Position numbers and translations under genes: made by a program | Source: Antedon mediterranea | Taxonomy: Eukaryota > Animalia > Echinodermata | DNA length: 64,000 nucleotides | NCBI RefSeq assembly: GCF_964355755.1 | Contig: NC_092671.1 | Coordinates: 27,354,070 to 27,418,069 of the forward strand | Reading direction: 5' to 3' | Shown: in pieces, positions 17,001 to 60,640 of the stretch | How positions within the stretch are numbered: the stretch's first letter is position 1 | Layout: every line of letters begins with the position of its first letter | Notes under the pieces: generated by a model | Told to the model about the DNA's origin: nothing | The model's database searches: none | The model's input: the letters and a program-made list of their open reading frames with translations, nothing else

Positions 17001-17524
17001 TTTCAAACAAAAAACATATCTCTACACAACTTATCCTTAGACAGTAATGTTATGCAATAACTGATGCTTTAAATTGTTTCATTATAGGAATTAAAACAAA
17101 TCCTTTACTGTTTGAAATGGTACTTTTGCACATAATAATTCTGGACAATATTGTTGACCCCCCGCGGTCGATCAAACATTTTGATAGAAACGTCGAGCTG
17201 AACTTCGTTTGTTTGTAAATTGTAGATTATGGTAGTCAATGAAATTTGTTGTGATACTCACTAATAAAAGGTACCTCTTTATGCTTTTTTAACAAAATGT
17301 TTCAGTTTTTTTTTTAGAATAAAATTAAAAGTGACACTGAAACGGGCTCAAATAATGGTGCCAGTGTATAATGATATAAAATAATATTATGCAGCCATCA
17401 AGTGCAGTGTCATATGGAATGATGACAATGTATTGGTCTTTATAGTTTTCTCTGATACCTTTTATAACATGATTGTACTTGCACCCAGATAGAAGGAGGT
17501 TTAATCAAGTTATTCTTATTATTA

Positions 17525-26780: not shown

Positions 26781-27321
26781 GGAAACAGAATTGTCCAAAG
26801 ATGTTTCATACAGTGTTATAAGGGTGGGGAAACAGAATTGTCCAAAGATGTTTCATACAGTGTTATAAGGGTGGGGAAACAGAATTGTCCAAAGATGTTT
26901 CATACAGTGTTATAAGGGTGGGGAAACAGAATTGTCCAAAGATGTTTCATACAGTGTTAGAAGGGTGGGGAAACAGAATTGTCCAAAGATGTTTCATACA
27001 GTGTTATAAGGGTGGGGAAACAGAATTGTCCAAAGATGTTTCATACAGTGTTATAAGGGTGGGGAAACAGAATTGTCCAAAGATGTTTTATACAGTGTTA
27101 TAAGGGTGGGGAAACAGAATTGTCCAAAGATGTTTCATACAGTGTTATAAGGGTGGGGAAACAGAATTGTCCAAAGATGTTTTATACAGTGTTATAAGGG
27201 TGGGGAAACAGAATTGTCCAAAGATGTTTCATACAGTGTTATAAGGGTGGGGAAACAGAATTGTCCAAAGATATTTTATACAGTGTTATAAGGGTGGGGA
27301 AACAGAATTGTCCAAAGATGT
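26780..27321 (+). repeat. 47-bp minisatellite, ~11.5 copies
   Basis: GGGAAACAGAATTGTCCAAAGATGTTTCATACAGTGTTATAAGGGTG with period 47. Confidence 0.95.
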
Positions 27322-37930: not shown

Positions 37931-38684
37931 GGGCGCGTTTATACAACACGCTATTACACGCATATTCTACACGCCTACGAAAAGTGTGTTGTATAACAAC
38001 AAAGAGATTCCGTGTAATGAGATTTTAATTGCAAAAAAGGCTACTTGGCTGAATCCTAAAATTTGGTGGATTCCCGGTCGCCGTTACCGTGTTGGAAGTG
38101 TCCTCAGGGTATATTTTGACCTCTCGTTAAAACAGGTCGTAATATCAATCATTGCTAACAAGATTGGGCCCATTTATTGCTGCTTCGCTGCCAGCAATCA
38201 TCCTCCTACCACGTCTTACGCCTAGCCTAGTGGGGCCAACTCGTAGTGGTAGTAGGCCTCTATCGTTTCCCACTCCAAACAGAATTAAAAAAATAACATC
38301 GCAAAAATGGCATCTTCTTCCATAGTGTATAGATGAAACAATGAAACCCTTAAAATAACTTTTATTAATTTAAATGAACCGAGAACAAAATAAACAACAA
38401 TGCAAACGTGAACGAATACAATATAATGAAAATGGTAAAAACCGCGCGAATACATCGGACAGCGTGGAGGCGACGATGATTGTTGACAACTCAGCCAATT
38501 CAAGCGCGATCAACGATTTGACCTTTTATCCTAGCATGCACTGCGTGTTGATGAAACTTCCGGTATAACACGGTATCGTGATTTCTAGTATAACAGCAAA
38601 CGTTAAGGTGGGTTGACCTCGGTCCGAACAACACGCTAAAAATTAAAGCCGTGTTCAAATTTAGGGTGTTGTATAAACACGACC
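37931..38684. mobile_element. TIR MITE
   Basis: GGGCGCGTTTATACAACAC vs GTGTTGTATAAACACGACC inverted. Confidence 0.65.
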
Positions 38685-38704
38685 ATAGAGTGTAATGGAG
38701 GCAA

Positions 38705-38830
38705 CCTAGGATGATAGGTTGTGACCAATGGCACTCTGCTCGAATTTGGCTGACGTAGTTTGTACATCTGACATAGGAATATCTTTTGCTTTCTTTATAG
38801 CAATTTCGATGTATTCCTTCTTGATATTTC
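38705..38830 (-). mobile_element. Penelope-like element fragment
   Basis: IEIAIKKAKDIP followed (after frameshift) by RVPLVTTYHP, a motif of the Penelope RT-to-GIY-YIG linker. Confidence 0.5.
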
Positions 38831-39143
38831 TGTTATTCAATTTGCTCCAATTTACAAAATCTGATATCAATTTACGGTAGTCATATTCATTATCATGCTT
38901 ATCACCTAAAATATATCCTGCGATAACAGTATCGTCTGCATATTTAATCACAGAACATGACTCATTTGGTGACCTAAAGTCAGAAGTGAAAAGGGAATAC
39001 AACACAGGTGATATTACACAGCCTTGAGGTACTCCTACATTTGTTATCCTGCTGTCAGAGATGTGCCCATTTGCTATTACAAACTGAGGTCTACATTTCA
39101 GGAAATCGGACAGCCACCTGATGATATTGTGGTTTATCTCCAT
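38831..39143 (-). mobile_element. Rex1/Babar-type LINE RT fragment
   Basis: IIRWLSDFLKCRPQFV, GVPQGCVISPVLYSLFTSD, IKYADD. Confidence 0.8.
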
Positions 39144-39855
39144 GGCCCTGTTTCTGCTGCCAAGAAAATACTGTATTTTATACGGTATTTTTTGAATACC
39201 GTATATATACCGTATTTGTTTGGCAGCAGAAACTGCGCTCATAAAAAAATACCGTATTTTGTATACCGTATTTTCCCCACAAAATTTGTTGATAAAATAC
39301 GGTATTTACAAATTTATACCGTATTTTCTGTACCCTTTTCTGCTGCCAATAAAAAATACCGTATTTTTTTTACCTGTGACATGAGGTCAACATCGTGTTT
39401 TTATTTTCTGTCGCTGTCAGCGGTTTTACACACGTGTATAGATATATTCGGCGAAAATGTGGAGCGAAGACGTCACAGTATTTACTATATAAATCTGTGT
39501 GGGAAAGGGGTGAGGAAGCTAAAAATGTCCGGCCAACTAAAAGGTAATAAAAGGGACAACCACATTTATAAAGACATTTCTAAACAAATAAAGCAGCAGG
39601 AGTATGGAATAGTCTCCAAAGCAAGTAAATTCAAAGCTCTCAACATCTCTATCACTAGGGCTAGGCTGTTGAAAGTGAGACGTAAAAATTCCTTTATTGC
39701 GATTTTTAATTATCGACCAAATAAATGAATGGCAATTTGGGTATTAAAGGATGAAATTTAACACGACCACCCAAGAAGTATTGTTAGCAGAAACGGGGTA
39801 TAAAAAATACCGTATTTTATACCGTATTTTGAGCAGTTGCAGCAGAAACAGACCC
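39144..39855. mobile_element. TIR MITE with subterminal AAATACCGTATTT repeats (Harbinger-like)
   Basis: GGCCCTGTTTCTGCTGC vs GCAGCAGAAACAGACCC inverted. Confidence 0.7.
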
Positions 39856-40735
39856 TAATTAATTAATTTTGATGACGTTATCACGTTTAAAAACTTGAAG
39901 AACGTGAGTCGTGTAATTTCACCTACACCATACAGTTTAATATCTTACAGCTCATCAGAATTAAACGTGCCCTTGAAAATTTTAACTTATTAAGAAAGCT
40001 GATGAAATGTAGATATGAATTCATAAAAAAATTAAGCCGGTCGGATGTTGTGATGTTATCATATGGCCAGTTGAAGTTAAAAAGTAGTTTTTAAATTTCT
40101 TTAGTCAAAGTTATACAAATTTCAAAGAGCGCGCATTGCGCTTCTACGTGTCAAATTCTCTTCCAATTCTTATATTTATTTGCTTAATTCATTATCTTTC
40201 GAAATTGTCATCTTCGAGTTTATTTTGATATATCCATCATACCAAAAAATTATAACATGATGTGTGTCCCGTAATTTCACCTATGCTACACTGTATATAG
40301 ATATACAGTATATACTGTATATTGTATATGGCATATAATAGGCACAACTCAACACTATAAGCATATAATAGGATGGAATGTATCATCATTTTCCGATCGT
40401 ATGATAACGTACGTGCATGTTTAAAACAAATTATTTTCAGTAATTTATTAATTAATTTCAGTAAAATGATAAAAATGATCACCTATAATTCGTCAAAGTG
40501 ACGAATTAAATTCTAGTTTCTTTTTGTAATTCTTTAACCTTTAGTTCATTAAATGACTTTTGGTTTATAATCTATGAACAATCATTAAAATTCATAAAAT
40601 TGCGCATAAGTCACATTGCGCAACTCTGACATTAAAAAATAGGAGGTGCACAAGTTCACGTAAATGTTGTTCTGTTTACACGTTTTAGAGACACGCGACG
40701 CACAAAAATGACAGAAGGAAAGAAGCATAATACAG

Positions 40736-41217
40736 GAAAAGATGATGAAACAGGACAGTTACAAGGAGTTATCCGCTACTAAGCGGATAACTAATAATAC
40801 AGAAAAAAAGATGATTTCATACAGTTACAAAGAGTTATCCGCTGAATGTGGATAACTAATGATTTCATACAGTTACAAGGAGTTATCCGCTGAATGCGAA
40901 TAACTAAAAAAAAAGATGATGAAACAGGACAGTTACAAGGAGTTATCCGCTACTAAGCGGATAACTAACTAGACGTGAAACCCGTCACTTTGACGAGTTA
41001 GTTATCCGCTCGACAAACGCCACGTGCACATCATGAATTTTGCACACAGAAAAAGATTATTATGACCTGAACTGAAGAATATGATGTGATGTTAGTGCTG
41101 AATGCTGTATATTTTGTGTCGTATAGTATACACAGTATAATCTGTATAAATATCACAAACAGTGTAAAATATCTGAAAACTAAAAAAGTAACAGGACGAT
41201 TACAAGGAGTTATCCAC
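40736..41217 (-). mobile_element. Cluster of Helentron-like (HINE) termini
   Basis: Four tandem ACAAGGAGTTATCCGC-loop-GCGGATAACT hairpins (40760-40966), one opposite end (AACTAG..CCCGTCACTTTGACGAG..AGTTATCCGC, 40967-41009) and a fifth head cut at 41217. Confidence 0.65.
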
Positions 41218-44200
41218 GGGTATTGCTAAACTGCGCAAACACTGCGCAAACAACAAAAAAAGCTGCGCAAACCTCCTTCAAACCAATTAATATTTATTAG
41301 AACACAACTAGAACTATATAGGGAGACAATTTATGAGAAAAAAAATTTGAAATCCCTTTAAGTTTGCCTTTTTTGGTGTGAAAAACTTCAATTTTTGGGA
41401 AAATTACTGATTTCACAGCGCAAACAACAAAAAAAGCTGCGCAAACCTCCTTCAAACCAATTAATATTTATTAGAACACAACTAGAACTATATAGGGAGA
41501 CAATTTATGAGAAAAAAAATTTGAAATTCCTTTAAGTTTGCCTTTTTTTTTGGTGAAAAACTTCAATTTTTGGGAAAATTACTGATTTCACAGCGCAAAC
41601 AACAAAAAAAGCTGCGCAAACCTCCTTCAAACCAATTAATATTTATTAGAACACAACTAGAACTATATAGGGAGACAATTTATGAGAAAAAACATTTGAA
41701 ATTCCTTTAAGTTTGCCTTTTTTTGTGTGAAAAACTTCAATTTTTTGGAAAATTACTGATTTCACAGCGCAAAGAACAAAAAAAGCTGCGCAAACCTCCT
41801 TCAAAACAATTAATATTGATAGAACACAACTAGAACTATATAGGGAGACAATTTATGAGAAAAAAAAATTTGAAATTCCTTTAAGTTTGCCTTTTTTGGT
41901 GAAAAACTTCAATTTTTGGGAAAATTACTGATTTCACAGCGCAAACAACAACAAAAAGCTGCGCAAACCTCCTTTAAATCAATTAATATTGATTAAAACA
42001 CAACTAGACCTATATAGGGAGACAATTTATGGGGAAACAAATTTGAAATTCCTTTAAGTTTGCCCTTTTTTTGGGTGAAAAACTTAAATTTTTGGGAAAA
42101 TTACTGATTTCACAGCGCAAAAAAAAAAAAAGCTGCGCAAACCTTCTTTAAATCAATTAATATTGATTAAAACACAACTAGACCTATATAGGGAGACAAT
42201 TTATGGGGAAAAGAATTTGAAATTCCTTTAAGTTTGCCTTTTTTTGTGCGAAAAACTTCAATTTTTGGGAAAATTACTGATTTCACAGCGCAAAGAACAA
42301 AAAAAGCTGCGCAAACCTCCTTCAAAACAATTAATATTGATAGAACACAACTAGAACTATATAGGGAGACAATTTATGAGAAAAAAATTTGAAATTCCTT
42401 TAAGTTTGCCTTTTTTTGGGTGAAAAACTTCAATTTTTGGAAAAATTACTGATTTCACAGCGCAAACAACAACAAAAAGCTGCGCAAACCTCCTTTAAAT
42501 CAATTAATATTGATTAAAACACAACTAGACCTATATAGGGAGACAATTTATGGGGAAACAAATTTGAAATTCCTTTAAGTTTGCCTTTTTTTTGGGTGAA
42601 AAACTTCAATTTTTGGGAAAATTACTGATTTCACAGCGGAAAAAAAAAAAGCTGCGCAAACCTTCTTTAAATCAATTAATATTGATTAAAACACAACTAG
42701 ACCTATATAGGGAGACAATTTATGGGGAAAAAAATTGGAAATTCCTTTAAGTTTGCCTTTTTTTTTGTGAAAAACTTCAATTTTTGGGAAAATTACTGAT
42801 TTCACAGCACAAATAACAAAAAAAGCTGCGCAAACCTCCTTCAAAACAATTAATATTGATAGAACACAACTAGAACTATATAGGGAGACAATTTATGAGA
42901 AAAAAAATTTGAAATTCCTTTAAGTTTGCCTTTTTTTGGGTGAAAAACTTCAATTTTTGGGAAAATTACTGATTTCACAGCGCAAACAACAACAAAAAGC
43001 TGCGCAAACCTCCTTTAAATCAATTAATATTGATTAAAACACAACTAGAACTATATAGGGAGACAATTTATGAGAAAAAAAATTTGAAATTCCTTTAAGT
43101 TTGCCTTTTTTTGGGTGAAAAACTTCAATTTTTGGGAAAATTACTGATTTCACAGCGCAAACAACAACAAAAAGCTGCGCAAACCTCCTTTAAATCAATT
43201 AATATTGATTAAAACACAACTAGACCTATATAGGGAGACAATTTATGGGGAAAAAAATTTGAAATTCCTTTAAGTTTGCCCTTTTTTGGGTGAAAAACTT
43301 CAATTTTTGGGAAAATTACTGATTTCACAGCGCAAACAACAACAAAAAGCTGTGCAAACCTCCTTCAAACCAATTAATATTGATTAAAACACAACTAGAC
43401 CTATATAGGGAGACAATTTATGAGAAAAAAAAATTGAAATTCCTTTAAGTTTGCCTTTTTTTTGGTGAAAAACTTCAATTTTTGGGAAAATTACTGATTT
43501 CACAGCGCAAACAACAAAAAAAGCTGGGCAAACCTCCTTCAAACCAATTAATATTTATTAGAACACAACTAGAACTATATAGGGAGACAATTTATGAGAA
43601 AAAAAATTTGAAATTCCTTTAAGTTTGCCTTTTTTTGTGTGAAAAACTTCAATTTTTGGGAAAATTACTGATTTCACAGCGCAAAGAACAAAAAAAGCTG
43701 CGCAAACCTCCTTCAAAACAATTAATATTGATAGAACACAACTAAAACTATATAGGGAGACAATTTATGAGAAAAGAAATTTGAAATTCCTTTAAGTTTG
43801 CCTTTTTTTGGTGAAAAACTTCAATTTTTGGGAAAATTATTGATTTCACAGCGCAAACAACAACAAAAAACTGCGCAAACCTCCTTTAAATCAATTAATA
43901 TTGATTAAAACACAACTAGACCTATATAGGGAGACAATTTATGGGGAAACAAATTTGAAATTCCTTTAAGTTTGCCTTTTTTTTGGGTGAAAAACTTAAA
44001 TTTTTGGGAAAATTACTGATTTCACAGCGCAAAAAAACAAAAAGCTGCGCAAACCTTCTTTAAATCAATTAATATTGATTAAAACACAACTAGACCTATA
44101 TAGGGAGACAATTTATGGGAAAAAGAATTTGAAATTCCTTTAAGTTTGCCTTTTTTTGTGCGAAAAACTTCAATTTTTGGGAAAATTACTGATTTCACAG

Positions 44201-44867
44201 CGCAAACAACAAAAAAAGCTGCGCAAACCTCCTTCAAACCAATTAATATTGATTAAAACACAACTAGACCTATATAGGGAGACAATTTATGGGGAAAAAA
44301 ATTTGAAATTCCTTTAAGTTTGCCCTTTTTTTGGTGAAAAACTTCAATTTTTGGGAAAATTACTGATTTCACAGCACAAACAACAACAAAAAGCTGCGTA
44401 AACCTCCTTCAAAACAATTAATATTGATTAGATAACAACTAGAACTATATAGGGAGACAATTTATGGGAAAACAAATTTGAAATTCCTTTAAGTTTGCCT
44501 TTTTTTTGGGAAAATTAAAGATTTCACAGATTTAAAGGCCTGCGCATACCCCCAAAAAAGCTGCGCAAACCTCCTTCAAATCAATTAATATTGATTAGAT
44601 AACAACTAGAACAATATAGGGAGACAATTTAGAAAAACATTTTGAAATTGCTGTAAGTTTGCCTTTTTTTTTTAAATTAAAAAATTTAAATTACAGATTT
44701 CACAGATGTCAAGGTTTGCGCACACTGCGCAAACACCAAAATAAGCTGCGCAAAAGAACACAACTAGAACTATATAGGAAGACAATTTATGAAAAAACAA
44801 TATTGAAATTCCTGTAAGTTTGTCTTTGTTTGGGTAAAACAATTTTTGGGAAAATTACAGATTTCAC
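41218..44867 (+). repeat. Left TIR arm: ~174-bp tandem unit, ~21 copies
   Basis: TTTCACAGCG recurs at 41411, 41586, 41760...; innermost units (44520-44867) diverged. Confidence 0.95.
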
Positions 44868-45011
44868 AACGGAAACTTTAAAAAAACAGAAACAAGAAAA
44901 AATTTTTTTTTCAAATATAACTTTTTTTAATGAAATGTTTCGCAATTATTTACCTTCAAAGTTTTTTTATAACATTCTACTGTATTTTCAAATCAACATA
45001 AAGCTTTACAT

Positions 45012-47300
45012 TTACAATGCTCTTTTTTCTTTTTTTCTGGTTTTGTTAGCCCTTTTTGAAGTATTTTGTCCCTTTTTTTTGCCACTAGTATATGGAGGAT
45101 TAGTTGTGGACAACTGTCCATTTGTGGAGGTAGTAACATTTTCCTTTTTAATTTTCGGTACGAATTGAGAAAACTTATAAAAGTGTGCATTTCTTTCTTC
45201 TTCAGTCATCGAGCTCCACATTAATTGATCGAGTTCAAATTTCTTAAAATCATTTGATAGTTTGTATCCTCCCATATTTACAAAAGACATTTTAACGTCT
45301 TTATATTGACCCGTAACCATTTTTTCCAACATAAGAACTAAATCCGGCAGTTTCTTTTGCTTCCAGTCTGCAAAGGCTTTAATTGAATGATTCATTGATT
45401 CATTGTTGTTATTTGTCCAACTGCCTATTAATTTCTTGTGCCAAAGCTTTTCCTTTAATTTCGGAATCATCTTATTCGTGTAATCCAGTGCATCTGGTAC
45501 AACATTACCAACAAATTCTCGTAGTAAATTTTCTGTTATTGCAAAAGATTCTTCTAAATTTGTGTTGAGCAATTGTATTACTTTTTTATGTATAGAGGTT
45601 CTTACATTTCTTGCATATTTTCAAGCATGTGTTTTCTGCATAAGACATGTTTACAATGGAAAGTGTCCACAAATGCTTTGTGCATAGCCAATTCGTCATC
45701 TGTTCCTACTATCAAATTACTAAAATCTTTAACGCCAATACTTATCAAATTATACTTAAGAAAATAGTAAAATTCCGCAAAGGCTAATTGGTCGCTCTTA
45801 TGGTGAAGTAACATAGGGCCAAAAAAAACTGGATGTTCATTGTCCATTTTAGTGACAGATAGGTTTTTATAGACCATAAGCGTAAGATAGGTTTTGCCTA
45901 AATTGAAGGTTTTGTCAATGCCCAAAACAGTTTTTCCAGAGCAACAAAACCGTTTAATGTCATTAAGTTGTTCTTTTGCGAAAAGCACAAATGCAGGTGC
46001 TTGGCCTTTGATGAATACCGTTTTTTGTAGAAAATCATTTTCTGTCAACATGTTGAGAACTTCTAATACTTCATCAGCGTAATTTTGAGTGTATGGTTTA
46101 CAACGACAACATTTGCTGTTCCTTTTATCGTTTTGTTTTAAGTTATAAATTTGCTTTCTATTCCGTAGTTCATCTTGAGTGTCTCTATATGTTTCGGATG
46201 GAGTTTTAAAGTGGCATTGATTCCTTACTTTATTAAGAATTTCAGGGTCTGTCCTTACATATGATTGATTGTATTTAGAGTTCCCGTGTGGTGCAGTTAC
46301 GTTTAACACTCCTCTGTATTCGTGAACAGCTACATATTTTCCATTTATTGTGTCATCAATGTAAGTAATTTTCCGTTCGTAATTGGTGGCACGTTTCTTA
46401 GAATAATAGCGATGGACATTAATAGTTCTAGCATCACCTTCCACAACTAACTCGGTGTACTTTTGAATTTTACCCTTTTTCTTGGTTTTTTTGTAAAATC
46501 TCCCATCATCTATCTTGTCAACAAATATTAAAGTATTGCTATTATTTACCAAATATGTATGTTTCACCTTTGAATTCCGTTGCCAGGCACCACAATCATC
46601 GTTAAACACATTGTTTCCATTCGTTTGCATTTTTCTTAAAACAACACAATAAGCATTATTCTTGACACCTTTAGGCACAGATTGTAATGGAATTGAGGAA
46701 TTCATTTCCTCCCAAATGTTTTCAATATTTAAAAATACACCATTTTGTAGTTCTTTTAAATCACCTTTGATGTTAACTGTACTTCTGTTACTATCATCAC
46801 TGGTAACATCTTGATGACTCTCCTTGTAGCTTTCACCATTGTCGTCGCTATCATTGTTAGTGTCTATACCGCTGTTGCACGTTTCATCATTTGCGAAATT
46901 GGAAGTATCATTGTCGTCGTTATCTTCTCTTGTAACATTTGTTTCATTGTTAGTGTCTATATCGCTGTTGCACGTTTCATCATTTGCGAAATCAGAAGTA
47001 CCATTGTCGTCGTTATCTTCTCTCGTAACATTTGTTTCATTGTTAGTGTCTATATCGCTGTTGCACGTTTCATCATTTGCGAAATCAGAAGTATCATTGT
47101 CGTCGCTATCTTCTGTTGTTTCATTCATTTCATTGTTAGTGTCCAAATCGCTGTTTAATGTTCCACCATTTGCGAAATCAGAAGTATCATTGTCAACATC
47201 ACTTGTGAGAGCATCCACGTCGACTTGCATTATATTTGGTTCATTGTCAGTTTCCATATCTTCATTCTCCGTTTTAATAACACAATCAGCATTCCAAAAA
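45012..47300 (-). pseudogene. MULE-family DDE transposase exon, frame-broken at ~45575-45605
   Basis: TVLGIDKTFNLG (D1), PVFFGPMLLH, IVGTDDE (D2), LCRKH (CxxH), WTNNNNESMNH (E); TGCTTTAACAG acceptor at 47301 extends the ORF upstream of the first ATG. Confidence 0.85.
46840..47195 (-). repeat. In-frame 87-bp (29-aa) acidic repeat, ~4 copies
   Basis: DNDTSDFANDETCNSDIDTNNETNVTRED repeated in ORF 45602..47257. Confidence 0.9.
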
Positions 47301-47887
47301 ACTGTTAAAGCAAAACAAATGTAAAATAAGATACAGTATTTAAACTACAAAACTGTAAAATTAATTTTATGAACAGTTTGTGGCAATTTGCTGAATTTAT
47401 GATTCATTTTTTGTTTAGAGACATTCTGCAAGCTGTGGGCCGCGGCCAAGAAACATTTTTTTAAGAGCCATGAGGTGACTTTGAATTTAAAAATTAAAAA
47501 AATTAAATAAAGAAGACAATAATGGGCAATACTCCTGTCACATGTTTGACATTCACAAAAACAATTTTAGCCACCGTAAAGTGCCTTTATTTAAAAGGAA
47601 TACAGTATGTGTTGGGACCTTCGGGCTAAGCTTAATTTCTTGTGGTCAAATATAAACATTAAAAACTAAACAAACATTACATGAGGGTCACTTCTTATAT
47701 TGAGGCGCTATAAAGATTGAAATATAATGTATAAATAAAAATGACCAACGTTAATTAGAATCCAATAATAGTTTTAAAACACAGCTCAATGCCAAAGGAA
47801 AACAGATTTAATTAATAATTAGTGCATTGCCCGCAATGATTTTGTTGACAACCACATCACACTGAATTTTGCCTGTCTGTCTGTAAC

Positions 47888-49894
47888 TAGGTATCCCAAT
47901 GAAAGCGCACCGAGGGGTATCACTTTTGAAATATTGACGAAATTCGAAAAAGTAGTATGACTTTGATGTTAAATAAATCGTATTCAGTCTTAATTAATAC
48001 TTACAAAATTTATATTGTTTGAAAGTACTTGTTTTAATCTATGTATAAGTGTGTTTATAATTAAAATTAATGAATTAGTTGCCGAGAAAATGCGATTTTA
48101 AAACGGTTCTAAAATCCCGTCGAGCCGATTTCCGCGCGTTGAAAACCTCATCGGAAAATCCCCATCAGTTTTCAAAACACGATCGCACGATTACCATTGG
48201 AGCTAGCGGATTAATTTTTGTTGTATGTTATCAGGCTTTAAATAAGCTTTAATTTGATACGAAAATCGTCTTCTATAAATAGGTTTTTCGTAACGAAAAG
48301 TCATTTTTTGTGACAAAAATCCAATTTTGATTCACCGTTTATGGAAAAATATTATGGATTTTGGTATTAAATTATAGCTAAATCTACATTGAAATCGATA
48401 AAACATAGTTTACAAACGTATTGTGCATGGTAATTGAGCGAACTACATTTTAAAATGGTGCATGAGGCGTAAATCCCGTTCAAAATTTTAAAGATCCAAC
48501 CATTATAATCCGGTGAATATTGTAGTGAGTAAAATATTGTACTCTAAAATACGCGCGTGTTTGTTGTGGCGTTTTCCGTTAAATACATTAATGCACCCTA
48601 TCAGCGAATGGTACGTTCCATATTTTGAACACGTTGTTTAGTTTTCCTCGCTCGAGTTCGACCGGCTCGACGCGAGATGTGTGACAGCAGCGATGTCGGA
48701 GATTGACATGTCCTTTTCCGTCGTAGAATATCTGGTTTTACACATTAATTTAACAACTTAAAATTGATGTAATGTGCGGAAGATTTATTATGCAAGTATA
48801 CAATGCAAATGCGTTAGGTTAAAATGAAATTTATTAAGCTAATTTACCAACGTTACATTTGACTCTGTATACGGCGGCCGAAAGTCATTAACTGCGACCG
48901 AAATACTTTAACGGAGCGACTACTGATCGCGAGTAAGCCTTGACTTGGCCTAAACTTTAGCTCCGTATTTCAATTTAATAACGTAATAATACGAAAAGAA
49001 AACAATTTTTATAATGTTATATATACTATTCAGGTAAACAATTAATTGTTTTAATTAACATTGATTATTTTAAATGAGTTTATTTTGACCCATATTGTGC
49101 GTTTGCCTTAAAAGAGCATATCTTACTTAGCAGCCCGGCTTAGATTTGGTGACATAATCATATGGGCCTAAAATCTTGTTTTACGTATTCAAAAGTTATA
49201 TATAATAGTATTTATGATTGAAATTATAAATATAAAGTATATTAAAATATTCTAATAATTATACTTACCGAAAAATAGTGTAAAAGAAAAGAAACAGTAC
49301 ACACCGTTTTTAACATACTTTTTCATTTTTTCTTTTTATAATTTTAAATTTCACCATTACAAAATTTTTTTTTTTTCATATACACATCTAAAATATATTT
49401 ATTAATGAAATATACACTACATTCTAACAAGTACAAAAAAAATTAAATGAATTAGTACAGTAGTTCAAAAGTTACAGATCATTGAAAAATAGCAGTTTTT
49501 TCATTTTTTAGGGAATTCCAGCAAAAATGGGCGTTAAATGCTTTCCTACCACTTTGCGGACCAATAATTTAAAAAATAGGTTTCGTTGAGGCTCCAAAAA
49601 AAATAGAGTTGTACAACTCTGTGATATCTATAGGTTTAACAAAATTCAAAACTTTTAACTAATTATTGTAAAAGTTATAACCTTTTAAAAATGCTTCCAA
49701 TTTCAACTGCAAAAAACACCATTTTTAGGCAAAAAATCGTATATTTTTTTACCACTTTAAATAACCATAACTTTAGAACGGGTAATCGGATTTCAATCAT
49801 TTAAATCGCAAAATGCTAATTACATTAAGTTCTTTATGGTTAACTGAAAGAAAATGTAAAAAAATTAATCTGAATTTTTTCATTGGGATACCTA
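47888..49894. mobile_element. 2.0-kb non-coding TIR element with 7-bp TSD interrupting the OTU exon
   Basis: TAGGTATCCCAATGAAA / TTTCATTGGGATACCTA TIR; CTGTAAC at 47881-47887 and 49895-49901. Confidence 0.85.
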
Positions 49895-50342
49895 CTGTAA
49901 CACCTCTTCCAACTATCTTTTTTGTGCAAATTCTGCTGTAAGAATCCTTCTCTGACAATGGTGGTCTAACACATGTAAATGAAATCCTTAAAGCAGCACT
50001 AACAGCATACATTTCAAGCATTGACGCCCATTGTCCTAGTTGTGCCACATGCATGCCTATGTTCTCACTGTGGGTAATTATTGGCCATAAACTTTGTAGA
50101 GCTGGTAGCATGAAACGCGGGTCTGTTGTGTTATACAGAGGTGAATGTTCCATAATTTCTAAGACAGTTATAAGTCTCACATAAGGATGGTGTTCTTCAG
50201 AACCAAACATTCCCAGTGAAACAGCTCGAAAGAAACAATTTCCATCGCCTTGTGTGCACATAGGATTTGAATCTTCACCAGTTAGTTGAAACATGAGTTT
50301 CCGTGCCTGCACATCTATGGATAACTCTTGAACAGGAGCAAT
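49895..50342 (-). pseudogene. OTU-like (vertnin-type) cysteine-protease exon of the MULE gene; continues below 47888
   Basis: CTTACTAG acceptor; TQGDGNCFFRAVSLGMFGSEEHHPYVR, GQWASMLEMYAVSAAL; removing the insertion restores GRGVTDRQAKFSVMW. Confidence 0.8.
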
Positions 50343-50576
50343 CTAGTAAGATGTAAAGTTTAAAGTTACTAACATAAACATTTATTATTCACTGGGTGGC
50401 CAGCATGACCAGACACCTATGCCAAATTTTACGATCAAAATGGATTTACAGTACATGTACATTATTATATTATAGGTGCATTCCACAGTACTGTAATTGA
50501 CATAATTAAAAAATAGGCATACTTCAGAATTTATTTCATGTCAAAGATTGAAAATGCAAATGTTATGCCGTAATCA

Positions 50577-51920
50577 TCTATATATAAATTTACGTAAGGG
50601 CAAAATTCGGTAAATCGCGCCTTACTTCTAGAATTTTTACTCGATGGTATGTAAAGTTGGTTCGTACTTTCGGTACTGATTTTAACCACCTGATGTAACC
50701 CTATTTACTAATTAAATTAAGTTAGATAATTAGTTATTGACGATTAAAACGAATTTAGGTTCAACGATTTGTCCCAAATAGGGGTGTTTCCCGATCGTGG
50801 TATACACTGTCTAATGGATGTCCATCTTGAAAAATACCTGCCACAAAAATGCGAGGAGGCTTCGCATTTTCCTATCTCCTCCTACGATAATTGTTTTTAA
50901 TAGCTGAAAACCGGTTGAACAGCTAGAGTACAGCATCATAATGTTGAAGACAGGCCGATTTTCTTTAAAAAATACTATTTTGATAGATTTAATATACGAT
51001 TATACAAATGTATTGATTTGCGGTGAATGGAACATCCCCATCTCTCAGTCTGCCAGAGTTTGGTTTAACACAAGTAGGTAAATTTATGAGCCCTTGGTTT
51101 AACACATACGGTAGGTAAATATATGGGCCCTTTGAGAATAAACTTGCAATACTTTGACAATACTGTAAATACCTATTAACTATTTTTGGTCCTCATTTGA
51201 ATCGAACATTTCTTACTGTGAATGTTCGTACTGTTAGATGTAATATAAAAATATATACAAATAAACTTTATTACTGAGATTGTGGTTAGGCTCTACTGTT
51301 AGATATATAAACACATTATTATATACAAATAAACTTTATACTGACAGTTCCCTGTCGACGTTTGTATTAATTATTAATTAATAATTACCAATAATATAAA
51401 CGTCGTAGTGGTGTATTACTCCATGGTGTATCGTGACATGTACTTTAATATTTCAATCAATTATGACAGTGACAGTTTTAACAAAGTATTAAATCGCAAA
51501 TGTTTTACTGTATTTAGAGGTATATTATTTATAGGCCTATAAAACATGAACAAAATATTTCGTTACTGAGTGGATAAAGAATATATTTAAAAATTGTTCC
51601 TCTTTGTACCTATCCGCTTTCCCATCCCTCAAACCTAATGTTACATACAAAACACAAATTGGGTTTCTTTAAATGAGTCCAAATCAACAATTTGGACTCA
51701 TTTTGTGATAAGTTTCTCCTTCGGAAGTAATTCTCAGGGTGCTAATTTTAGTTGACTACATAAATCATCGTGTCTATTTATTCGTTTCTGTAAACGACAA
51801 TGTATTATATAATAGTACATTTGAAATCGCCAGTTTTGTTACGCTGAAATTGCTGTGTATTCGAGAACCATCTGTGGGCACGACCTAGATGGTACGCAGC
51901 GAAGTGAGCGTACCATCTAG
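50577..51920 (+). mobile_element. Non-autonomous Helitron in an intron of the MULE gene
   Basis: A|TC 5' start; 3' CTAGATGGTACGC..GCGTACCATCTAG hairpin ending in CTAG; second copy at 14254-17000. Confidence 0.8.
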
Positions 51921-52701
51921 GAGACATAATTACATTTAAATATTGCCTATATTTGTTTATTAGTAAATTATATATGTTTATTAGATGTACTTTTTATGAT
52001 TTGTGATGGTTTTAGAAAATGTCCTCTAAATATATCATAATTCCTGTCCTAAATCTTAATTGTACTGCAGTAAATTTTTTTAGTTTCCATCAGTAAAATC
52101 CAATTTCATATCCTTGAGTTTACTATGCTATATTTCGAAAATATACATTTACAATTATAATAATAACTTCATAATACAACGTTACGGTTTTGACCGGCAT
52201 TACATAATGCCCAAGGGCATTACACGTGAAAAAAAAAAGAGTTTTACTTAAATTGTAAAGGGAAACGTAATATAGGATTATTACACATCATTTTAGTTTT
52301 TACAATACAAAGATTAAAATTTTAGGAGTAGATCCAATTTTGCCCTTTTTTAATTCCCACTAAAAAAAGATGTATTTAAATAGTCATTTGAATGAAATAT
52401 GATAATATTATTTATTATTTTGTTATCTGTTGTTACTAGAGACAAATTTAATTTTAATGTGTCAGTCACATTTAAATATTTTCATACCTACTCAAACTTC
52501 AATATAAGCAATAATTAAAGTTTCATTGATCAGATATAGCAAATTAAACTTTAAAAGTGTAAAGTCTGTGGTTAAAAAATACTGTGATTATATCAACATT
52601 TAAAATACTGTATTAATACATATGCTGAATTGCCCATATTCAAATCTGATACTATAGAAAACAATTCTTTTAACAAAAAAGCATTAGAAAAGCCTACATA
52701 C

Positions 52702-52897
52702 CTTAGGCAAGTAATCCTTATTCTTCTGTAGTAATGTCCTTTCAGATTGCCAAATTGTCTCTCCATTTCGGATTTGCCTTAAAGCGGATAAGCTGTCATA
52801 AAGTCCGTCAACAATGTATGGGTTTTCGATCTTTCTCCTTTTCCGAAATTGAGGTCCACGTCCCTTCTTGAACCGCTTGGTTCTAAACACTGACCAA
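52702..52897 (-). CDS. Predicted exon 2 of the MULE-internal gene (basic, NLS-like)
   Basis: TCATATAG acceptor, AAG|GTATGT donor; open WSVFRTKRFKKGRGPQFRKRRKIENP...YLPK; phase 0 matches the OTU exon. Confidence 0.6.
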
Positions 52898-53247
52898 CTA
52901 TATGAATACACAACATTTATGTCAATTAATGCTTGTTAGTTTATAAATGACAAACTTAACAATTTATACTAAATATTAATAAAAGTACTAAATAAAGTAC
53001 ATACTGTACTGTAATACTTTTTTATCTACGTTTTTTATGTTTAATTGTACGTTCGCAGTAATACTGTAGGTCTTAAATCCCTAGACCTTCTTTAAAGTAC
53101 AGTATATATATTTATACTGTCCTATACTTACTTACTATTATTACACACATTAGTGTACGTGTTATACCAAAACAGCAATATCATATATATAATTACATAT
53201 TTTAGCTAGCAATATAATTGGAAAAAAAGTAGTAGAAGATAATTTAC

Positions 53248-53261
53248 CTTTCATGATCCAT
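53248..53261 (-). CDS. Predicted first coding micro-exon (MDHE) of the MULE-internal gene
   Basis: GACATGGATCATGAAAG|GTAAAT; phase 2 matches the exon at 52897. Confidence 0.45.
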
Positions 53262-53277
53262 GTCTATAACTGGCAAC

Positions 53278-53682
53278 AGTTATCAGAAGTTAAAACAGCA
53301 GCAAAAAATAAGTTTTATGAGGAACGTCAGCAGTAGTTGTATTCAAAATAATCGTAAGCGATGTTTAACAGTTGAGAAAGTTATCAGAAGTTAAAACAGC
53401 AGCAAAAAATAAGTTTTATCAGGAACGTCAGCAGTAGTTGTATTCAAAATAATCGTAAGCGATGTTTAACAGTTGAGAAAGTTATCAGAAGTTAAAACAG
53501 CAGCAAAAAATAAGTTTTATCAGGAACGTCAGCAGTAGTTGTATTCAAAATAATCGTAAGCGATGTTTAACAGTTGAGAAAGTTATCAGAAGTTAAAACA
53601 GCAGCAAAAAAATAAGTTTTATCAGGAACGTCAGCAGTAGTTGTATTCAAAATAATCATAAGCGATGTTTAACAGTTGAGAA
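53278..53682. repeat. 101-bp tandem repeat, 4 copies
   Basis: AGTTATCAGAAGTTAAAACAGC at 53278, 53379, 53480, 53581. Confidence 0.95.
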
Positions 53683-53923
53683 ATCAAAATGAAATGGGGC
53701 AGATACAGCTTGTTTTACTTAGTTATACTCATTATAGGTTTTGATGCATTGTTTATGGAATAATTGTTTTTTTTACTGTAGGTGTCTGAACACCTTTCAT
53801 TGTTTTAAATAATAAGGCCATGTACATGTATTGTACGCCCTTCAAAAAGCTAACCTTAATTCAAAGGATAGCACAACTAATAATTTAAATTCATCACTTT
53901 CAATAATCAAACCTAAATGAATA

Positions 53924-56900
53924 AATTTCAAATTTTTTTTTCTCATAAATTGTCTCCCTATATAGTTCTAGTTGTGTTCTATCAATATTAATTGTTTTGA
54001 AGGAGGTTTGCGCAGCTTTTTTTGTTCTTTGCGCTGTGAAATCAGTAATTTTCCCAAAAATTGAAGTTTTTCACCCAAAAAAAGGCAAACTTAAAGGAAT
54101 TTCAAATTTGTTTTCCCATAACTTGTCTCCCTATATCTAGTTGTGTTTTAATCAATATTAATTGATTTAAAAAAGGTTTGCGCAGCTTTTTTTTTTTTTG
54201 GGCTGTGAAATCTGTAATTTTCCCCAAAAATTGAAGTTTTTCACCAAAAAAAAAGGGCAAACTTAAAGGAATTTCAAATTTGTTTCCCCATAAATTTTCT
54301 CCCTATATAGGTCTAGTTGTGTTTTAATCAAAATTAATTGATTTAAAGGAGGTTTGGGCAGCTTTTTTTGTTGTTTGCGCTGTGAAATCAGTAATTTTCC
54401 CAAAAATTGAAGTTTTTCACCCAAAAAAAAGGCAAACTTAAAGGAATTTCAAATTTGTTTCCCCATAAATTGTCTCCCTATAGGTCTAGTTGTGTTTTAA
54501 TCAATATTAATTGATTTAAAGGAGGTTTGCGCAGCTTTTTGTTGTTGTTTGCGCTGTGAAATCAGTAATTTTCCCAAAAATTGAAGTTTTTCACCCAAAA
54601 AAAGGCAAACTTAAAGGAATTTCAAATTTTTTTTCTCATAAATTGTCTCCCTATATAGTTCTAGTTGTGTTCTATCAATATTAATTGTTTTGAAAGAGGT
54701 TTGCGCAGCTTTTTGTTGTTTGCGCTGTGAAATCAGTAATTTTCCCAAAAATTGAAGTTTTTCACCCAAAAAAAGGCAAACTTAAAGGAATTTCAAATTT
54801 TTTTTCTCATAAATTGTCTCCCTATATAGTTCTAGTTGTGTTCTATCAATATTAATTGTTTTGAAGGAGGTTTGCGCAGCTTTTTTTGTTCTTTGCGCTG
54901 TGAAATCAGTAATTTTCCCAAAAATTGAAGTTTTTCACCCAAAAAAAGGCAAATTTAAAGGAATTTCAAATTTGTTTTCCCATAACTTGTCTCCCTATAT
55001 AGGTCTAGTTGTGTTTTAATCAATATTAATTGATTTAAAAAAGGTTTGCGCAGCTTTTTTTTTTTTTGCGGTGTGAAATCAGTAATTTTCCCAAAAATTG
55101 AAGTTTTTCACCTAAAAAAAAGGCAAACTTAAAGGAATTTCAAATTTGTTTCCCCATAAATTGTCTCCCTATATAGGTCTAGTTGTGTTTTAATCAATAT
55201 TAATTGATTTAAAGGAGGTTTGCGCAGCCTTTTGTTGTTGTTTGCGCTGTGAAATCAGTAATTTTCCCAAAAATTGAAGTTTTTCACCCAAAAAAAAGGC
55301 AAACTTGAAGGAATTTCAAATTTGTTTCCCCATAAATTGTCTCCCTATATAGGTCTCGTTGTGTTTTAATCAATATTAATTGATTTAAAGGAGGTTTGCG
55401 CAGCCTTTTGTTGTTGTTTGCGCTGTGAAATCAGTAATTTTCCCAAAAATTGAAGTATTTCACCCAAAAAAAGGCAAACTTAAAGGAATTTCAAATTTGT
55501 TTTCCCATAACTTGTCTCCCTATATAGGTCTAGTTGTGTTTTAATCAATATTAATTGATTTAAAAAAGGTTTGGGCAGCTTTTGTTGTTTGCGCTGTGAA
55601 ATCAGTAATTTTCCCAAAAATTGAAGTTTTTCACCCAAAAAAAGGCAAACTTAAAGGAATTTCAAATTTTTTTTCTCATAAATTGTCTCCCTATATAGTT
55701 CTAGTTGTGTTCTATCAATATTAATTGTTTTGAAGGAGGTTTGCGCAGCTTTTTTTGTTCTTTGCGCTGTGAAATCAGTAATTTTCCCAAAAATTGAAGT
55801 TTTTCACCCAAAAAAAGGCAAACTTAAAGGAATTTCAAATTTTTTTTCCCATAACTTGTCTCCCTATATAGGTCTAGTTGTGTTTTAATCAATATTAATT
55901 GATTTAAAGGAGGTTTGCGCAGCCTTTTGTTGTTGTTTGCGCTGTGAAATCAGTAATTTTCCCAAAAATTGAAGTTTTTCACCCAAAAAAAAGGCAAACT
56001 TAAAGGAATTTCAAATTTGTTTCCCCATAAATTGTCTCCCTATATAGGTCTAGTTGTGTTTTAATCAATATTAATTGATTTAAAGGAGGTTTGCGCAGCT
56101 TTTTTTGTTCTTTGCGTTGTGAAATCAGTAATTTTCCCAAAAATTAAAGTTTTTCACCCAAAAAAAGGCAAACTTAAAGGATTTTCAAATTTTTTTTCTC
56201 ATAAATTGTCTCCCTATATAGTTCTAGTTGTGTTCTATCAATATTAATTGTTTTGAAGGAGGTTTGCGCAGCTTTTTTTGTTCTTTGCGCTGTGAAATCA
56301 GTAATTTTCCCAAAAATTGAAGTTTTTCACCCAAAAAAAGGCAAACTTAAAGGAATTTCAAATTTTTTTTCCCATAACTTGTCTCCCTATATAGGTCTAG
56401 TTGTGTTTTAATCAATATTAATTGATTTAAAGGAGGTTTGCGCAGCCTTTTGTTGTTGTTTGCGCTGTGAAATCAGTAATTTTCCCAAAAATTGAAGTTT
56501 TTCACCCAAAAAAAAGGCAAACTTGAAGGAATTTCAAATTTGTTTCCCCATAAATTGTCTCCCTATATAGGTCTAGTTGTGTTTTAATCAATATTAATTG
56601 ATTTAAAGGAGGTTTGCGCAGCCTTTTGTTGTTGTTTGCGCTGTGAAATCAGTAATTTTCCCAAAAATTGAAGTTTTTCACCCAAAAAAAGGCAAACTTA
56701 AAGGAATTTCAAATTTTTTTTCTCATAAATTGTCTCCCTATATAGTTCTAGTTGTGTTTTAATCAATATTAATTGATTTAAAAAAGGTTTGCGCAGCTTT
56801 TTTTGTTCTTTGCGCTGTGAAATCAGTAATTTTCCCAAAAATTGAAGTTTTTCACCCAAAAAAAGGCAAACTTAAAGGAATTTCAAATTTGTTTTCCCAT

Positions 56901-59108
56901 AACTTGTCTCCCTATATAGGTCTAGTTGTGTTTTAATCAATATTAATTGATTTAAAAAAGGTTTGCGCAGCTTTTTTTTTTTTTGCGCTGTGAAATCAGT
57001 AATTTTCCCAAAAATTGAAGTTTTTCACCCAAAAAAAGGCAAACTTAAAGGAATTTCAAATTTGTTTTCCCATAACTTGTCTCCCTATATAGGTCTAGTT
57101 GTGTTTTAATCAATATTAATTGATTTAAAAAAGGTTTGCGCAGCTTTTTTTTTTTTTTGCGCTGTGAAATCAGTAATTTTCCCAAAAATTGAAGTTTTTC
57201 ACCCAAAAAAAAGGCAAACTTAAAGGAATTTCAAATTTGTTTCCCCATAAATTGTCTCCCTATATAGGTCTAGTTGTGTTTTAATCAATATTAATTGATT
57301 TAAAGGAGGTTTGCGCAGCCTTTTGTTGTTGTTTGCGCTTTGAAATCAGTAATTTTCCCAAAAATTGAAGTTTTTCACCCAAAAAAAGGCAAACTTAAAG
57401 GAATTTAAAATTTTTTTTCTCATAAATTGTCTCCCTATATAGTTCTAGTTGTGTTCTATCAATATTAATTGTTTTGAAGGAGGTTTGCGCAGCTTTTTTT
57501 GTTCTTTGCGCTGTGAAATCAGTAATTTTCCCAAAAATTGAAGTTTTTCACCCAAAAAAAGGCAAACTTAAAGGAATTTCAAATTTTTTTTCTCATAAAT
57601 TGTCTCCCTATATAGTTTTAGTTGTGTTCTATCAATATTAATTGTTTTGAAGGAGGTTTGCGCAGCTTTTTTTGTTCTTTGCGCTGTGAAATCAGTAATT
57701 TTCCCAAAAATTGAAGTTTTTCACCCAAAAAAAGGCAAACTTAAAGGAATTTCAAATTTGTTTTCCAATAACTTGTCTCCCTATATAGGTCTAGTTGTGT
57801 TTTAATCAATATTAATTGATTTAAAAAAGGTTTGCGCAGCTTTTTTTGTTCTTTGCGCTGTGAAATCAGTAATTTTCCCAAAAATTGAAGTTTTTCACCC
57901 AAAAAAAGGCAAACTTAAAGGAATTTCAAATTTGTTTTCCCATAACTTGTCTCCCTATATAGGTCTAGTTGTGTTTTAATCAATATTAATTGATTTAAAA
58001 AAGGTTTGCGCAGCTTTTTTTTTTTTTTGCGCTGTGAAATCAGTAATTTTCCCAAAAATTGAAGTTTTTCACCCAAAAAAAAGGCAAACTTAAAGGAATT
58101 TCAAATTTGTTTCCCCATAAATTGTCTCCCTATATAGGTCTAGTTGTGTTTTAATCAATATTAATTGATTTAAAGGAGGTTTGCGCAGCCTTTTGTTGTT
58201 GTTTGCGCTGTGAAATCAGTAATTTTCCCAAAAATTGAAGTTTTTCACCCAAAAAAAGGCAAACTTAAAGGAATTTCAAATTTTTTTTCTCATATATTGT
58301 CTCCCTATATAGTTCTAGTTGTGTTCTATCAATATTAATTGTTTTGAAAGAGGTTTGCGCAGCTTTTTGTTGTTGTTTGCGCTGTGAAATCAGTAATTTT
58401 CCCAAAAATTGAAGTTTTTCACCCAAAAAAAGGCAAACTTAAAGGAATTTCAAATTTTTTTTCTCATAAATTGTCTCCCTATATAGGTCTAGTTGTGTTT
58501 TAATCAATATTAATTGATTTAAAAAAGGTTTGCGCAGCTTTTTTTTTTTTTTGCGCTGTGAAATCAGTAATTTTCCCAAAAATTGAAGTTTTTCACCCAA
58601 AAAAAAGGCAAACTTAAAGGAATTTCAAATTTGTTTCCCCATAAATTGTCTCCCTATATAGGTCTAGTTGTGTTTTAATCAATATTAATTGATTTAAAGG
58701 AGTTTTGCGCAGCCTTTTGTTGTTGTTTGCGCTGTGAAATCAGTAATTTTCCCAAAAATTGAAGTTTTTCACCCAAAAAAAAGGCAAACTTAAAGGAATT
58801 TCAAATTTGTTTCCCCATAAATTGTCTCCCTATATAGGTCTAGTTGTGTTTTAATCAATATTAATTGATTTAAAGGAGGTTTGCGCAGCCTTTTGTTGTT
58901 GTTTGCGCTGTGAAATCAGTAATTTTCCCAAAAATTGAAGTTTTTCACCCAAAAAAAGGCAAACTTAAAGGAATTTCAAATTTTTTTTCTCATAAATTGT
59001 CTCCCTATATAGTTCTAGTTGTGTTCTAATCAATAATAATTGTTTTGAAGGAGGTTTGCGCAGCTTTTTTTGTTGTTTGCGCAGTGTTTGCGCAGTTTAG
59101 CAATACCC
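53924..59108 (-). repeat. Right TIR arm: ~174-bp tandem unit, ~30 copies, inverted relative to the left arm
   Basis: Units are reverse complements of the 41218-44867 unit (GCGCTGTGAAATCAGTAATTTTCCC...). Confidence 0.95.
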
Positions 59109-59178
59109 GTTATCCACTGATAATACATTAAAAAAAAAAATGATGATCCCATACAATAACAAGGAGTTATCCGCCAAG

Positions 59179-59637
59179 CATTAGTGTACAGCCCCATTAG
59201 AGAATGTGTTTTTGAAAAACTTCGGGTAAATGTCACTTAACCTCCTACTGTGACATGTGTTTATATAAGGGGCCGTTTACGAACAGCAAGTATCCGGATA
59301 ACTTGTCATCTTTTGATAACTAGAAGTCTGTAAACGGTAGGGAGAATTTTGATTTAGCCTTGTCAGGAGAGACCTCTGGCGTATCCAGATACTTTAAATG
59401 TTCATAAACACAACCTAAGTCCAACTTTGATAGGCAGGTCGTTAAGCCTTCTGCTAGTTTTTGCCTGACCATTGACCTTGCATACTGAAGAATGTACCTT
59501 GTCCTAATCAATCAATTACAAGAGAGCTAATAAAATCACAGGGGTATAATAGGATTCAGGTCATTAATCACCTGCTTAGTTTATTTATCTGATAAGGATT
59601 TTGACCAAAAAGTTCTAATGGGGATGTACACCTAATG
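59179..59637. mobile_element. MITE with CA..TG termini and 2-bp TSD (EnSpm-like)
   Basis: AG|CATTAGTGTACAGCCCCATTAGA ... TCTAATGGGGATGTACACCTAATG|AG. Confidence 0.7.
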
Positions 59638-59689
59638 AGTGTGGATAACTAAGCGGATAACTAAAAAAAATGATGATCCCATACAATAA

Positions 59690-60640
59690 GGATCTTGGCT
59701 TTATTAACATATTGGAGCTTATCAGTTCCCAAGTGTATGTCAACGTGTGAAGGTTGGGTAGAACTGAAACACGCCTTAAGGGCTTGACATTTTTTGGGGT
59801 TAAGCACTAAACAATTGTTGTTACACCAGCGGAAAAAAAAATTAAGATCATCTTGTAAAAAAAACCAGGCAATGAGAGTCAGTTTTTTGCAGGTGTCTAA
59901 CTCTATCTGCATTAAATTTTACTTTAGCTTTAAAGATTTCCCTCTTGACTTTGTTTCTGCAAGCTTTCCAATGGGTTAAGTTATTGGATTTCAACGCTTT
60001 TTGGCGTTCAGAAATAGAATTTCTGATATTTTGTGTTAGCCAAGGTTTATCAGTATTGTGCGTTTTAATATTTTTTAACGGGAAAAACTTATTAATAGCA
60101 GTGATCAGTTTGTAATAGAAAGCATCAACTTTACTCTGTGTAGAAATGCAGCTATAAATATCATTCCAATTCTGAGATACAATCCAGGTGCCAAATGATC
60201 TTATTCTGGTATCATATAAGGGACGAACACTTATAGATTTGACAACATTTTTGATAGCTTGAACTTTAGGTTTCCATAAAATACAGATGTGGTCACTAAA
60301 ACCAATAGGAGACATCGCTTCCGGGGTATGGTATTTAGTTTCAAAATTAGTCAAGATGAGGTCTAATGTAGCAAGTTCACGGGTTGGAAAATTAACAATT
60401 TGTTTTAAACAGTTATTACGTAAAATGTAGTTAATGTTCATTCTGTTGAAATCGCCCATAATGCAAAAACCAGTCTCAGTGATCTAGAACGAATAAGGTC
60501 AATCGTTTCACAAATATGCCGCTCAAGAAGAAGTTGATATGGGGAGTCTGTTGTGTACTTGAACACCTTGCTGCATATGCTACAATGCCAATTAACATTG
60601 ATATGTCTCTTGTCGATCTTAGTATTGTATTGGTAGCCAT
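59690..60640 (-). mobile_element. Deleted LINE remnant (endonuclease + RT tail)
   Basis: GDFN, FPTR..TLDLILTN, GFSDH, DKPWLT; then LQDDLN..WC..N.LVLNPKKC. Confidence 0.8.

What the first reader, a model, noticed from the sequence alone, without database searches (positions are those of the whole stretch)
45012..53261. Spliced OTU-protease + MULE transposase gene inside the foldback element
Seen: phase-compatible minus-strand exons 53261-53248 (MDHE), 52897-52702 (basic) and 50342-49895 (GDGNCFFRAVS, GQWASMLE). The transposase ORF has its own strong acceptor at 47301, 43 nt upstream of its first ATG. Known: GDGNC is the catalytic Cys loop of OTU deubiquitinases, and some transposons carry ubiquitin/SUMO proteases (Ulp1 in MULEs, OTU in Helentrons). 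Inference: the ancestral element made one NLS-OTU-acidic linker-DDE fusion protein, perhaps countering ubiquitin-dependent silencing or turnover, with resemblance to vertnin-like OTU domains. The phase-2 donor linking OTU to transposase and the catalytic His motif could not be identified in this copy.
Basis: partly seen in the sequence, partly recalled or inferred. Interest (0 to 1): 0.8.

Follow-up and report, generated by a model that had tools for sequence, protein, structure and literature searches.

The report
Broken foldback transposon with OTU-transposase fusion
This is a broken copy of an 18-kb animal jumping gene whose cutting enzyme was likely made as one protein with a domain predicted to remove ubiquitin tags; intact relatives carry the same fusion and such a pairing is already catalogued, but what the extra domain does is untested.

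Summary
Real, but a new member of a known kind. 41218-59108 is a foldback MULE with a 9-bp target duplication and inverted 174-bp arrays. The OTU exon passes Pfam's cut-off. Removing a nested 2,007-bp insert continues its frame. Fusion is the family norm: 41 of 44 transposase relatives with 200+ residues upstream carry this OTU, three loci (two sequences plus a duplicate pair) encode OTU Cys, His and DDE region in one stop-free frame, and OTU and transposase divergences correlate. This copy is broken by the insert and a 31-bp frameshift, and has no PHD finger. Corrections: the last acceptor needs a phase-1 donor, not phase 2; a candidate His mini-exon lies at 47630-47585 (p about 0.03, post hoc, needs two GC donors). 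No junction reads were obtained. An OTU-bearing MULE (MuDR-6_HM) is already tabulated (PMC6446971), and this scan noted the architecture before in two other genomes. Deubiquitinase activity is inferred.

The parts
41218..59108 (.). Whole foldback MULE element, 17,891 bp, both ends GGGTATTGCTAAAC
41209..41217 (+). 9-bp target-site duplication, left copy (GTTATCCAC)
59109..59117 (+). 9-bp target-site duplication, right copy
41218..44900 (+). Left arm: terminus plus 174-bp array (19.8 units, 41240-44670) and degenerate inner units; 30 GCGCAAAC motifs
53924..59108 (-). Right arm: inverted 174-bp array (29.7 units) plus terminus; 43 GCGCAAAC motifs
53278..53683 (.). Four 101-bp tandem copies (99% alike) just upstream of exon 1; role unknown
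53248..53261 (-). Putative exon 1 (ATG, 14 nt); splice signals only, no homology support
52702..52897 (-). Exon 2: basic NLS-like stretch where relatives have a PHD finger, then the conserved pre-OTU helix
50343..52701 (.). Intron 2, holding dispersed repeats also found at 14254-17001 of the window
49895..50342 (-). Exon 3, first part: OTU core, GDGNC loop, Cys codon 50237-50235
47888..49894 (.). Nested 2,007-bp element, perfect 17-bp inverted ends, flanked by a 7-bp direct repeat; interrupts the OTU exon; superfamily unassigned
47831..47887 (-). Exon 3, second part: conserved xMW strand (47860-47852); in-frame stop at 47821-47819 if unspliced; only a weak GC donor at 47830
47585..47630 (-). 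Candidate mini-exon with the catalytic His strand (KVPTHTVFLLN, His codon 47609-47607), ending AAG|GC in phase 1; about even odds
46750..47301 (-). Start of last exon: acidic linker (31% Asp+Glu) with 93-bp repeats at 46851-47194
45012..46749 (-). MULE transposase core: D 45916, D 45700, CxxH 45640-45629, E 45401; frameshift at 45618/45615 (31 bp fewer than other copies)

Best explanation
This is a broken copy of a foldback Mutator-like transposon whose spliced gene likely made one protein, a basic head, OTU protease, acidic linker and DDE transposase, and the OTU domain likely worked as a tethered deubiquitinase protecting the transposition complex from ubiquitin-dependent removal. Shown: element ends, 9-bp duplication, OTU and transposase homology, the two lesions, and the fusion in relatives. 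From established MULE biology: the transposase binds the terminal and subterminal repeats, cuts the element out and inserts it with a 9-bp duplication. Inferred: the splice path in this copy (about 85% fused in the parent element; about 50% through the 47630-47585 mini-exon), enzyme activity in intact members (about 80%, from conserved Asp/Cys/His), and its substrates (the transposase and proteins at its binding sites; untested). This copy cannot make active transposase and would move only with enzyme from another copy.
For: Ends and TSD. OTU above Pfam cut-off. A homologue's OTU model (pLDDT 86) best matches OTUD3, OTUD1, OTUD5 and A20. Of the best 150 hits to the transposase alone, 44 have 200+ residues upstream; 41 of these match a local OTU profile (37 of 40 without the four used to build it; 29 of 29 with 300+ residues), and 29 of 44 hit Pfam OTU at E<=0.01. 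Cys and His are present in 36 of 36 homologues that I chose for a near-full OTU match. L001, L002/L004 (same sequence) and L009 hold Cys loop, His strand and DDE region in one stop-free DNA frame. OTU and transposase identities correlate, rho 0.42, 0 of 2000 permutations. With the candidate His exon the model is stop-free for 812 codons, Cys-to-His 138 residues against 128-146 in homologues. Contigs of three runs have 33 letters where the window has 2 at 45615-45618; read by hand this keeps the frame.
Against: No read or contig was laid on the OTU exons or the OTU-transposase junction. No strong GT donor follows the xMW strand. The His exon needs two weak GC donors and an AAG acceptor; whole-path scores are not clearly above null (147.6 bits for the path using acceptor 47301, reached by 9 of 40 nulls; best path 150.4, reached by 1 of 40). 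9 of 19 DNA loci with 1.2 kb or more upstream show no OTU, among them L005 with an intact 713-residue frame. For the window alone, OTU and transposase identities to homologues do not correlate significantly (rho 0.19, p 0.26), and P0001 sits in different clades in the two trees. No activity data.
Confidence: 0.72

Rival explanations
1. Same fusion, but the OTU mainly edits chromatin or repair signalling (histone or K63 ubiquitin) at the donor or target site, guided in relatives by the PHD finger.
For: 17 of 36 fused homologues have a PHD-like head. PMC2836005 (passages) proposes a DNA-repair role for OTU and Ulp1 domains of transposases.
Against: This element has no PHD in 50343-53930 (best E 0.79) yet keeps the OTU Cys loop. 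No substrate data.
Confidence: 0.13
2. In this lineage the OTU exons end at the stop at 47821-47819 and the transposase is made separately from ATG 47257, so the OTU is a His-less relic or a second product.
For: In-frame stop and no strong donor after the xMW strand. The last exon has its own ATG. Three other His relics added under 1 bit. L005 has a long transposase frame without nearby OTU.
Against: Strong acceptor at 47302 needs an upstream exon. The candidate His strand is the top of 244 positions in the interval and ends in the matching phase. The nearest fused relative is the same in both trees.
Confidence: 0.1
3. The OTU is a captured host gene fragment, Pack-MULE style, unrelated to transposition.
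For: MULEs capture genes (PMC6431247, passages). The gene has introns.
Against: Its closest relatives are OTUs of MULE, FLYWCH-MULE and Helitron proteins, and the pairing holds across lancelets, tunicates and a brachiopod.
Confidence: 0.03

Closest known systems
MuDR-6_HM (Hydra), MULE group 14 of Dupeyron et al. 2019 (PMC6446971; passages, section 6 part 1 and supplement rows seen)
   Same: A MULE with one ORF and 'Ovarian Tumour Gene' listed as its extra motif.
   Different: Listed as 5,227 bp without TIRs; this element is 17.9 kb with 3.7 and 5.2 kb foldback arms and a spliced gene. Same clade not tested: the paper's FASTA supplements could not be read.
Foldback MULEs: Muta1 (PMC5499845), Tm1/Phantom (PMC3169594), Rehavkus (PMC12581902, PMC6446971); passages only
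   Same: 9-bp TSD, arms of tandem subterminal repeats, DDE with CxxH; Muta1 also begins GGG.
   Different: No OTU in the passages seen; Phantom has FLYWCH, absent from this clade's Pfam rows; arms here are kilobases of 174-bp units.
Ginger1 transposases with OTU or Ulp1, and Helentron OTU/VTD (PMC2836005, PMC6431247, PMC9741609; passages)
   Same: A ubiquitin or SUMO protease domain fused to a transposition enzyme; this OTU family also occurs in Helitron proteins.
   Different: Other transposase superfamilies; in Ginger1 the domain is C-terminal. Helitron VTDs were assayed, transposon OTUs were stated to be untested (2022).
Vertnin (VRTN), inactive OTU homologue in humans (PMC10318531; passages)
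   Same: OTU-like fold; 5 of 107 family hits carry an automatic 'Vertnin' label.
   Different: Vertnin lacks catalytic sites; this family keeps Cys and His. No vertebrate VRTN was retrieved, so descent was not tested.

Membership tests
Mutator/MULE superfamily | About 9-bp target-site duplication | tested here: met
   GTTATCCAC on both sides; the flank is itself a repeat rich in similar words, but the match is exact at both ends
Mutator/MULE superfamily | Long terminal inverted repeats | tested here: met
Mutator/MULE superfamily | DDE transposase with CxxH, MULE profile | tested here: met
   No direct Pfam hit; homologues hit PF10551; D, D, CxxH, E aligned at 473 bits
Autonomous MULE | Intact transposase frame | tested here: not met
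   Frameshift at 45618/45615 before the catalytic Glu; insert in exon 3
Foldback-type element | Arms built of tandem subterminal repeats | tested here: met
   19.8 and 29.7 inverted 174-bp units
OTU deubiquitinase | OTU profile and fold | tested here: met
   Pfam above cut-off for the window exon; fold tested on homologue P0005 only
OTU deubiquitinase | Catalytic Cys loop (D-G-x-C) | tested here: met
   50249-50235
OTU deubiquitinase | Catalytic His strand | tested here: inconclusive
   Candidate at 47621-47589, 147 of 5000 nulls as good; 36 of 36 chosen homologues have it
OTU deubiquitinase | Cleaves ubiquitin conjugates | not testable with these tools
   Needs an assay
MuDR-6_HM group (group 14) | Clusters with MuDR-6_HM in the transposase tree | not testable with these tools
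   Sequence files unreadable
Rehavkus | PHD finger in the transposase | tested here: not met
   No PHD in this copy; sequence kinship with Rehavkus not tested
Phantom MULE | N-terminal FLYWCH finger | tested here: not met
   None in the window's frames or in the 40 long transposase relatives scanned
Vertnin-like OTU subfamily | Closer to VRTN than to other OTUs | tested here: inconclusive
   Only automatic labels on rotifer and fungal hits

The most novel reading that the evidence does not exclude
A large, barely described MULE clade of marine invertebrates depends on a catalytically intact OTU deubiquitinase fused to its transposase, has kept it since these phyla split, trades the module with FLYWCH-MULEs and Helitrons, uses it as a counter-defence against a host ubiquitin system that destroys transposases, and is the mobile source of vertebrate vertnin.
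Probability: 0.25. Interest if true: 0.7.

Novelty: new member of a known kind. Interest (0 to 1): 0.33.

Why it matters
The copy itself is dead and the OTU-MULE pairing is already listed, so the finding is not a surprise to a transposon specialist. What it adds is scale and a test system: 1,864 clusters match the transposase, nearly all long members among the best 150 carry an OTU, and intact single-frame members (L001, L009, P0003) could be assayed. Whether transposon OTUs are active, and on what, was stated as untested in PMC9741609 (2022); a positive result would point to a ubiquitin-level arms race between hosts and DNA transposons.

Tried and rejected
No genome is held, so no consensus of copies. 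No RNA holder listed; X5 is only guessed to be RNA. Only 44930-47440 was laid: no run covers 47114-47440, so the junction is untested; X5's 109-nt skip has no GT-AG ends in any register and was rejected as an intron. Three His relics (start of the 47301 exon, read-through of the 47821 stop, frameshifted 47813-47795) added under 1 bit (one candidate was mis-framed in each call and read correctly in the other). A TA duplication for the insert was rejected: it leaves the 7-bp direct repeat unexplained and scores 141.1 against 142.7 bits. No PHD exon in the introns. Viral contigs: 0 of 45 pattern matches were relatives. No TIR with TSD found around 7 related loci. The Atlas gave only generic OTU clusters for a homologue. 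Paper searches for vertnin+OTU+transpos and MULE+transposase+OTU+deubiquitin+transposable element gave 0 papers; searches listed no paper devoted to this clade; PMC13359780 has 0 occurrences of OTU in its main text; PMC2927773 is not held. Repbase reports and most subscription journals are not searched. The scans left out one short stretch of the interval.
Full report
Element. The gene lies inside a 17,891-bp element, 41218-59108, with identical ends and an exact 9-bp duplication. Its arms are inverted arrays of a 174-bp unit, 19.8 copies left and 29.7 right, with 30 and 43 oriented GCGCAAAC motifs and none elsewhere in the ranges counted. It sits in another repeat. No genome is held.

Observation. 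Exon 3 hits Pfam OTU above its cut-off and, weakly, solved OTUD7B and OTUD1 (E about 0.01). Against a profile of 36 homologous OTU regions, exon 3 scores 117.8 bits, exons 1+2 add 10 (0 of 1000 shuffles), and the top 8 of 799 alternative upstream stretches are all exon 2's own frame. A 2,007-bp element with perfect 17-bp inverted ends and a 7-bp direct repeat interrupts exon 3; past it the frame continues into the conserved xMW strand, adding 14 bits (1 of 1000 shuffles), then meets a stop at 47821. The last acceptor ends at 47302, so it needs a phase-1 donor.

The missing His. Three simple relics gave no gain. Enumerating 182 stop-free splice paths pointed to 47630-47585. A matrix of the His strand ranks KVPTHTVFLLN first of 244 positions in the interval (10.1 bits, next -0.2); 4 of 63,967 positions in the window and 147 of 5000 simulated intervals reach that score, which is at the bottom of the homologues' leave-one-out range, 9.8-35.1. 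The nearest fused relative reads FKPNHFVPLLN there. The piece ends AAG|GC in phase 1, and the model is then stop-free for 812 codons with Cys-to-His 138 residues (homologues 128-146). Against it: two weak GC donors, an AAG acceptor, a post hoc choice, and whole-path scores that 9 of 40 nulls reach. I put it at even odds.

Transposase. The window's frames have no Pfam hit but align over about 600 positions to a profile of relatives, with D, D, CxxH and E in place; relatives hit PF10551. The frame breaks at 45618/45615, where contigs of runs X5, X6 and X8 carry 33 letters instead of 2. The element occurs in two organisms by the run labels, and loose ends show deletion derivatives that join short transposase pieces straight to arm sequence.

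Family. A search with the transposase alone found 1,864 clusters at E<=0.001. Of the best 150, 96 have under 100 residues upstream and say nothing; 1 of 10 with 100-200, 12 of 15 with 200-300 and 29 of 29 with more than 300 match the OTU profile (four of these helped build it). Pfam confirms 29 of the 44 long ones. In 36 homologues chosen for a near-full OTU match, Cys and His are invariant at 28% mean identity; partial matches were left out. Named hosts are Branchiostoma, Ciona, Styela and Lingula. Of 56 DNA loci, 19 have 1.2 kb or more upstream, 10 of these hold the OTU and 9 do not; L001, L002/L004 and L009 encode Cys loop, His strand and DDE region in one frame. OTU and transposase identities correlate (rho 0.42, 0 of 2000 permutations; kin share history, so this shows co-inheritance only); the window pairs with the Ciona protein P0014 in both unrooted trees, while P0001 changes place. 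The same OTU family occurs with FLYWCH-MULE and Helitron domains. 17 of 36 homologues have a PHD-like head; this copy has a Cys-free basic stretch there. A model of the P0005 OTU matches OTUD3, OTUD1, OTUD5 and A20.

Mechanism. From Muta1 work (PMC5499845, passages), MULE transposase binds the ends, more subterminal repeats raise binding and excision, and cutting goes through flanking hairpins; I infer the same here. The OTU, tied to that protein by a long acidic linker, most likely removes ubiquitin from the transposase and its neighbours so that the complex is not degraded or stripped off DNA. PMC9741609 (passages) proposes such a role for Helitron DUBs and says transposon OTUs are untested; PMC2836005 (passages) proposes a repair role. 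Neither is tested here. This copy is non-autonomous.

Novelty. PMC6446971 Table 1 lists MuDR-6_HM as a one-ORF MULE with an ovarian-tumour motif, seen before I consulted earlier scan notes, two of which report PHD-OTU-MULE proteins in other genomes. My ten paper searches found no study of the clade, but Repbase reports and the paper's FASTA supplements were out of reach and may already cover it. Verdict: new member of a known kind, interest 0.33.

Noticed in passing
run X1 record 5, window 46211-46427; runs X6 and X8 at 46375: Deletion derivatives in which a short transposase piece is joined directly to arm sequence; in X1 the 217-nt piece has depth 729 against 282 for the window-identical contig.
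   Followed up: partly
40700-41217 and 59109-59700: The element inserted into a repeat rich in GTTATCC(G/A)C words, with a 48-bp tandem at 40811-40907; not identified.
   Followed up: partly
47888-49894: Nested 2-kb element with TAGG...CCTA ends and a 7-bp duplication, single copy in the window, no ORF of 80 codons of its own; a hAT-type or P-type assignment is recalled, not tested.
   Followed up: partly
P0009, P0203, P0006: The same OTU family is fused to FLYWCH-MULE transposases and to C2H2 zinc-finger proteins, suggesting module exchange between elements.
   Followed up: partly
L014:9506-11336; L021/L022: L014 is a 1.8-kb relative with GGG...CCC inverted ends and no OTU; L021/L022 have a gap of about 575 bp inside the transposase, probably an intron.
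   Followed up: no
61034-63053 (-): Copia-like gag and integrase frames, broken.
   Followed up: no
2312-4483 and 26780-27321: Tandem arrays of 103 bp (21 copies) and 47 bp (11.5 copies); several decayed LINE reverse-transcriptase pieces lie at 4796-7046, 32147-33100, 38500-39305 and 59661-60483 (read by eye).
   Followed up: no
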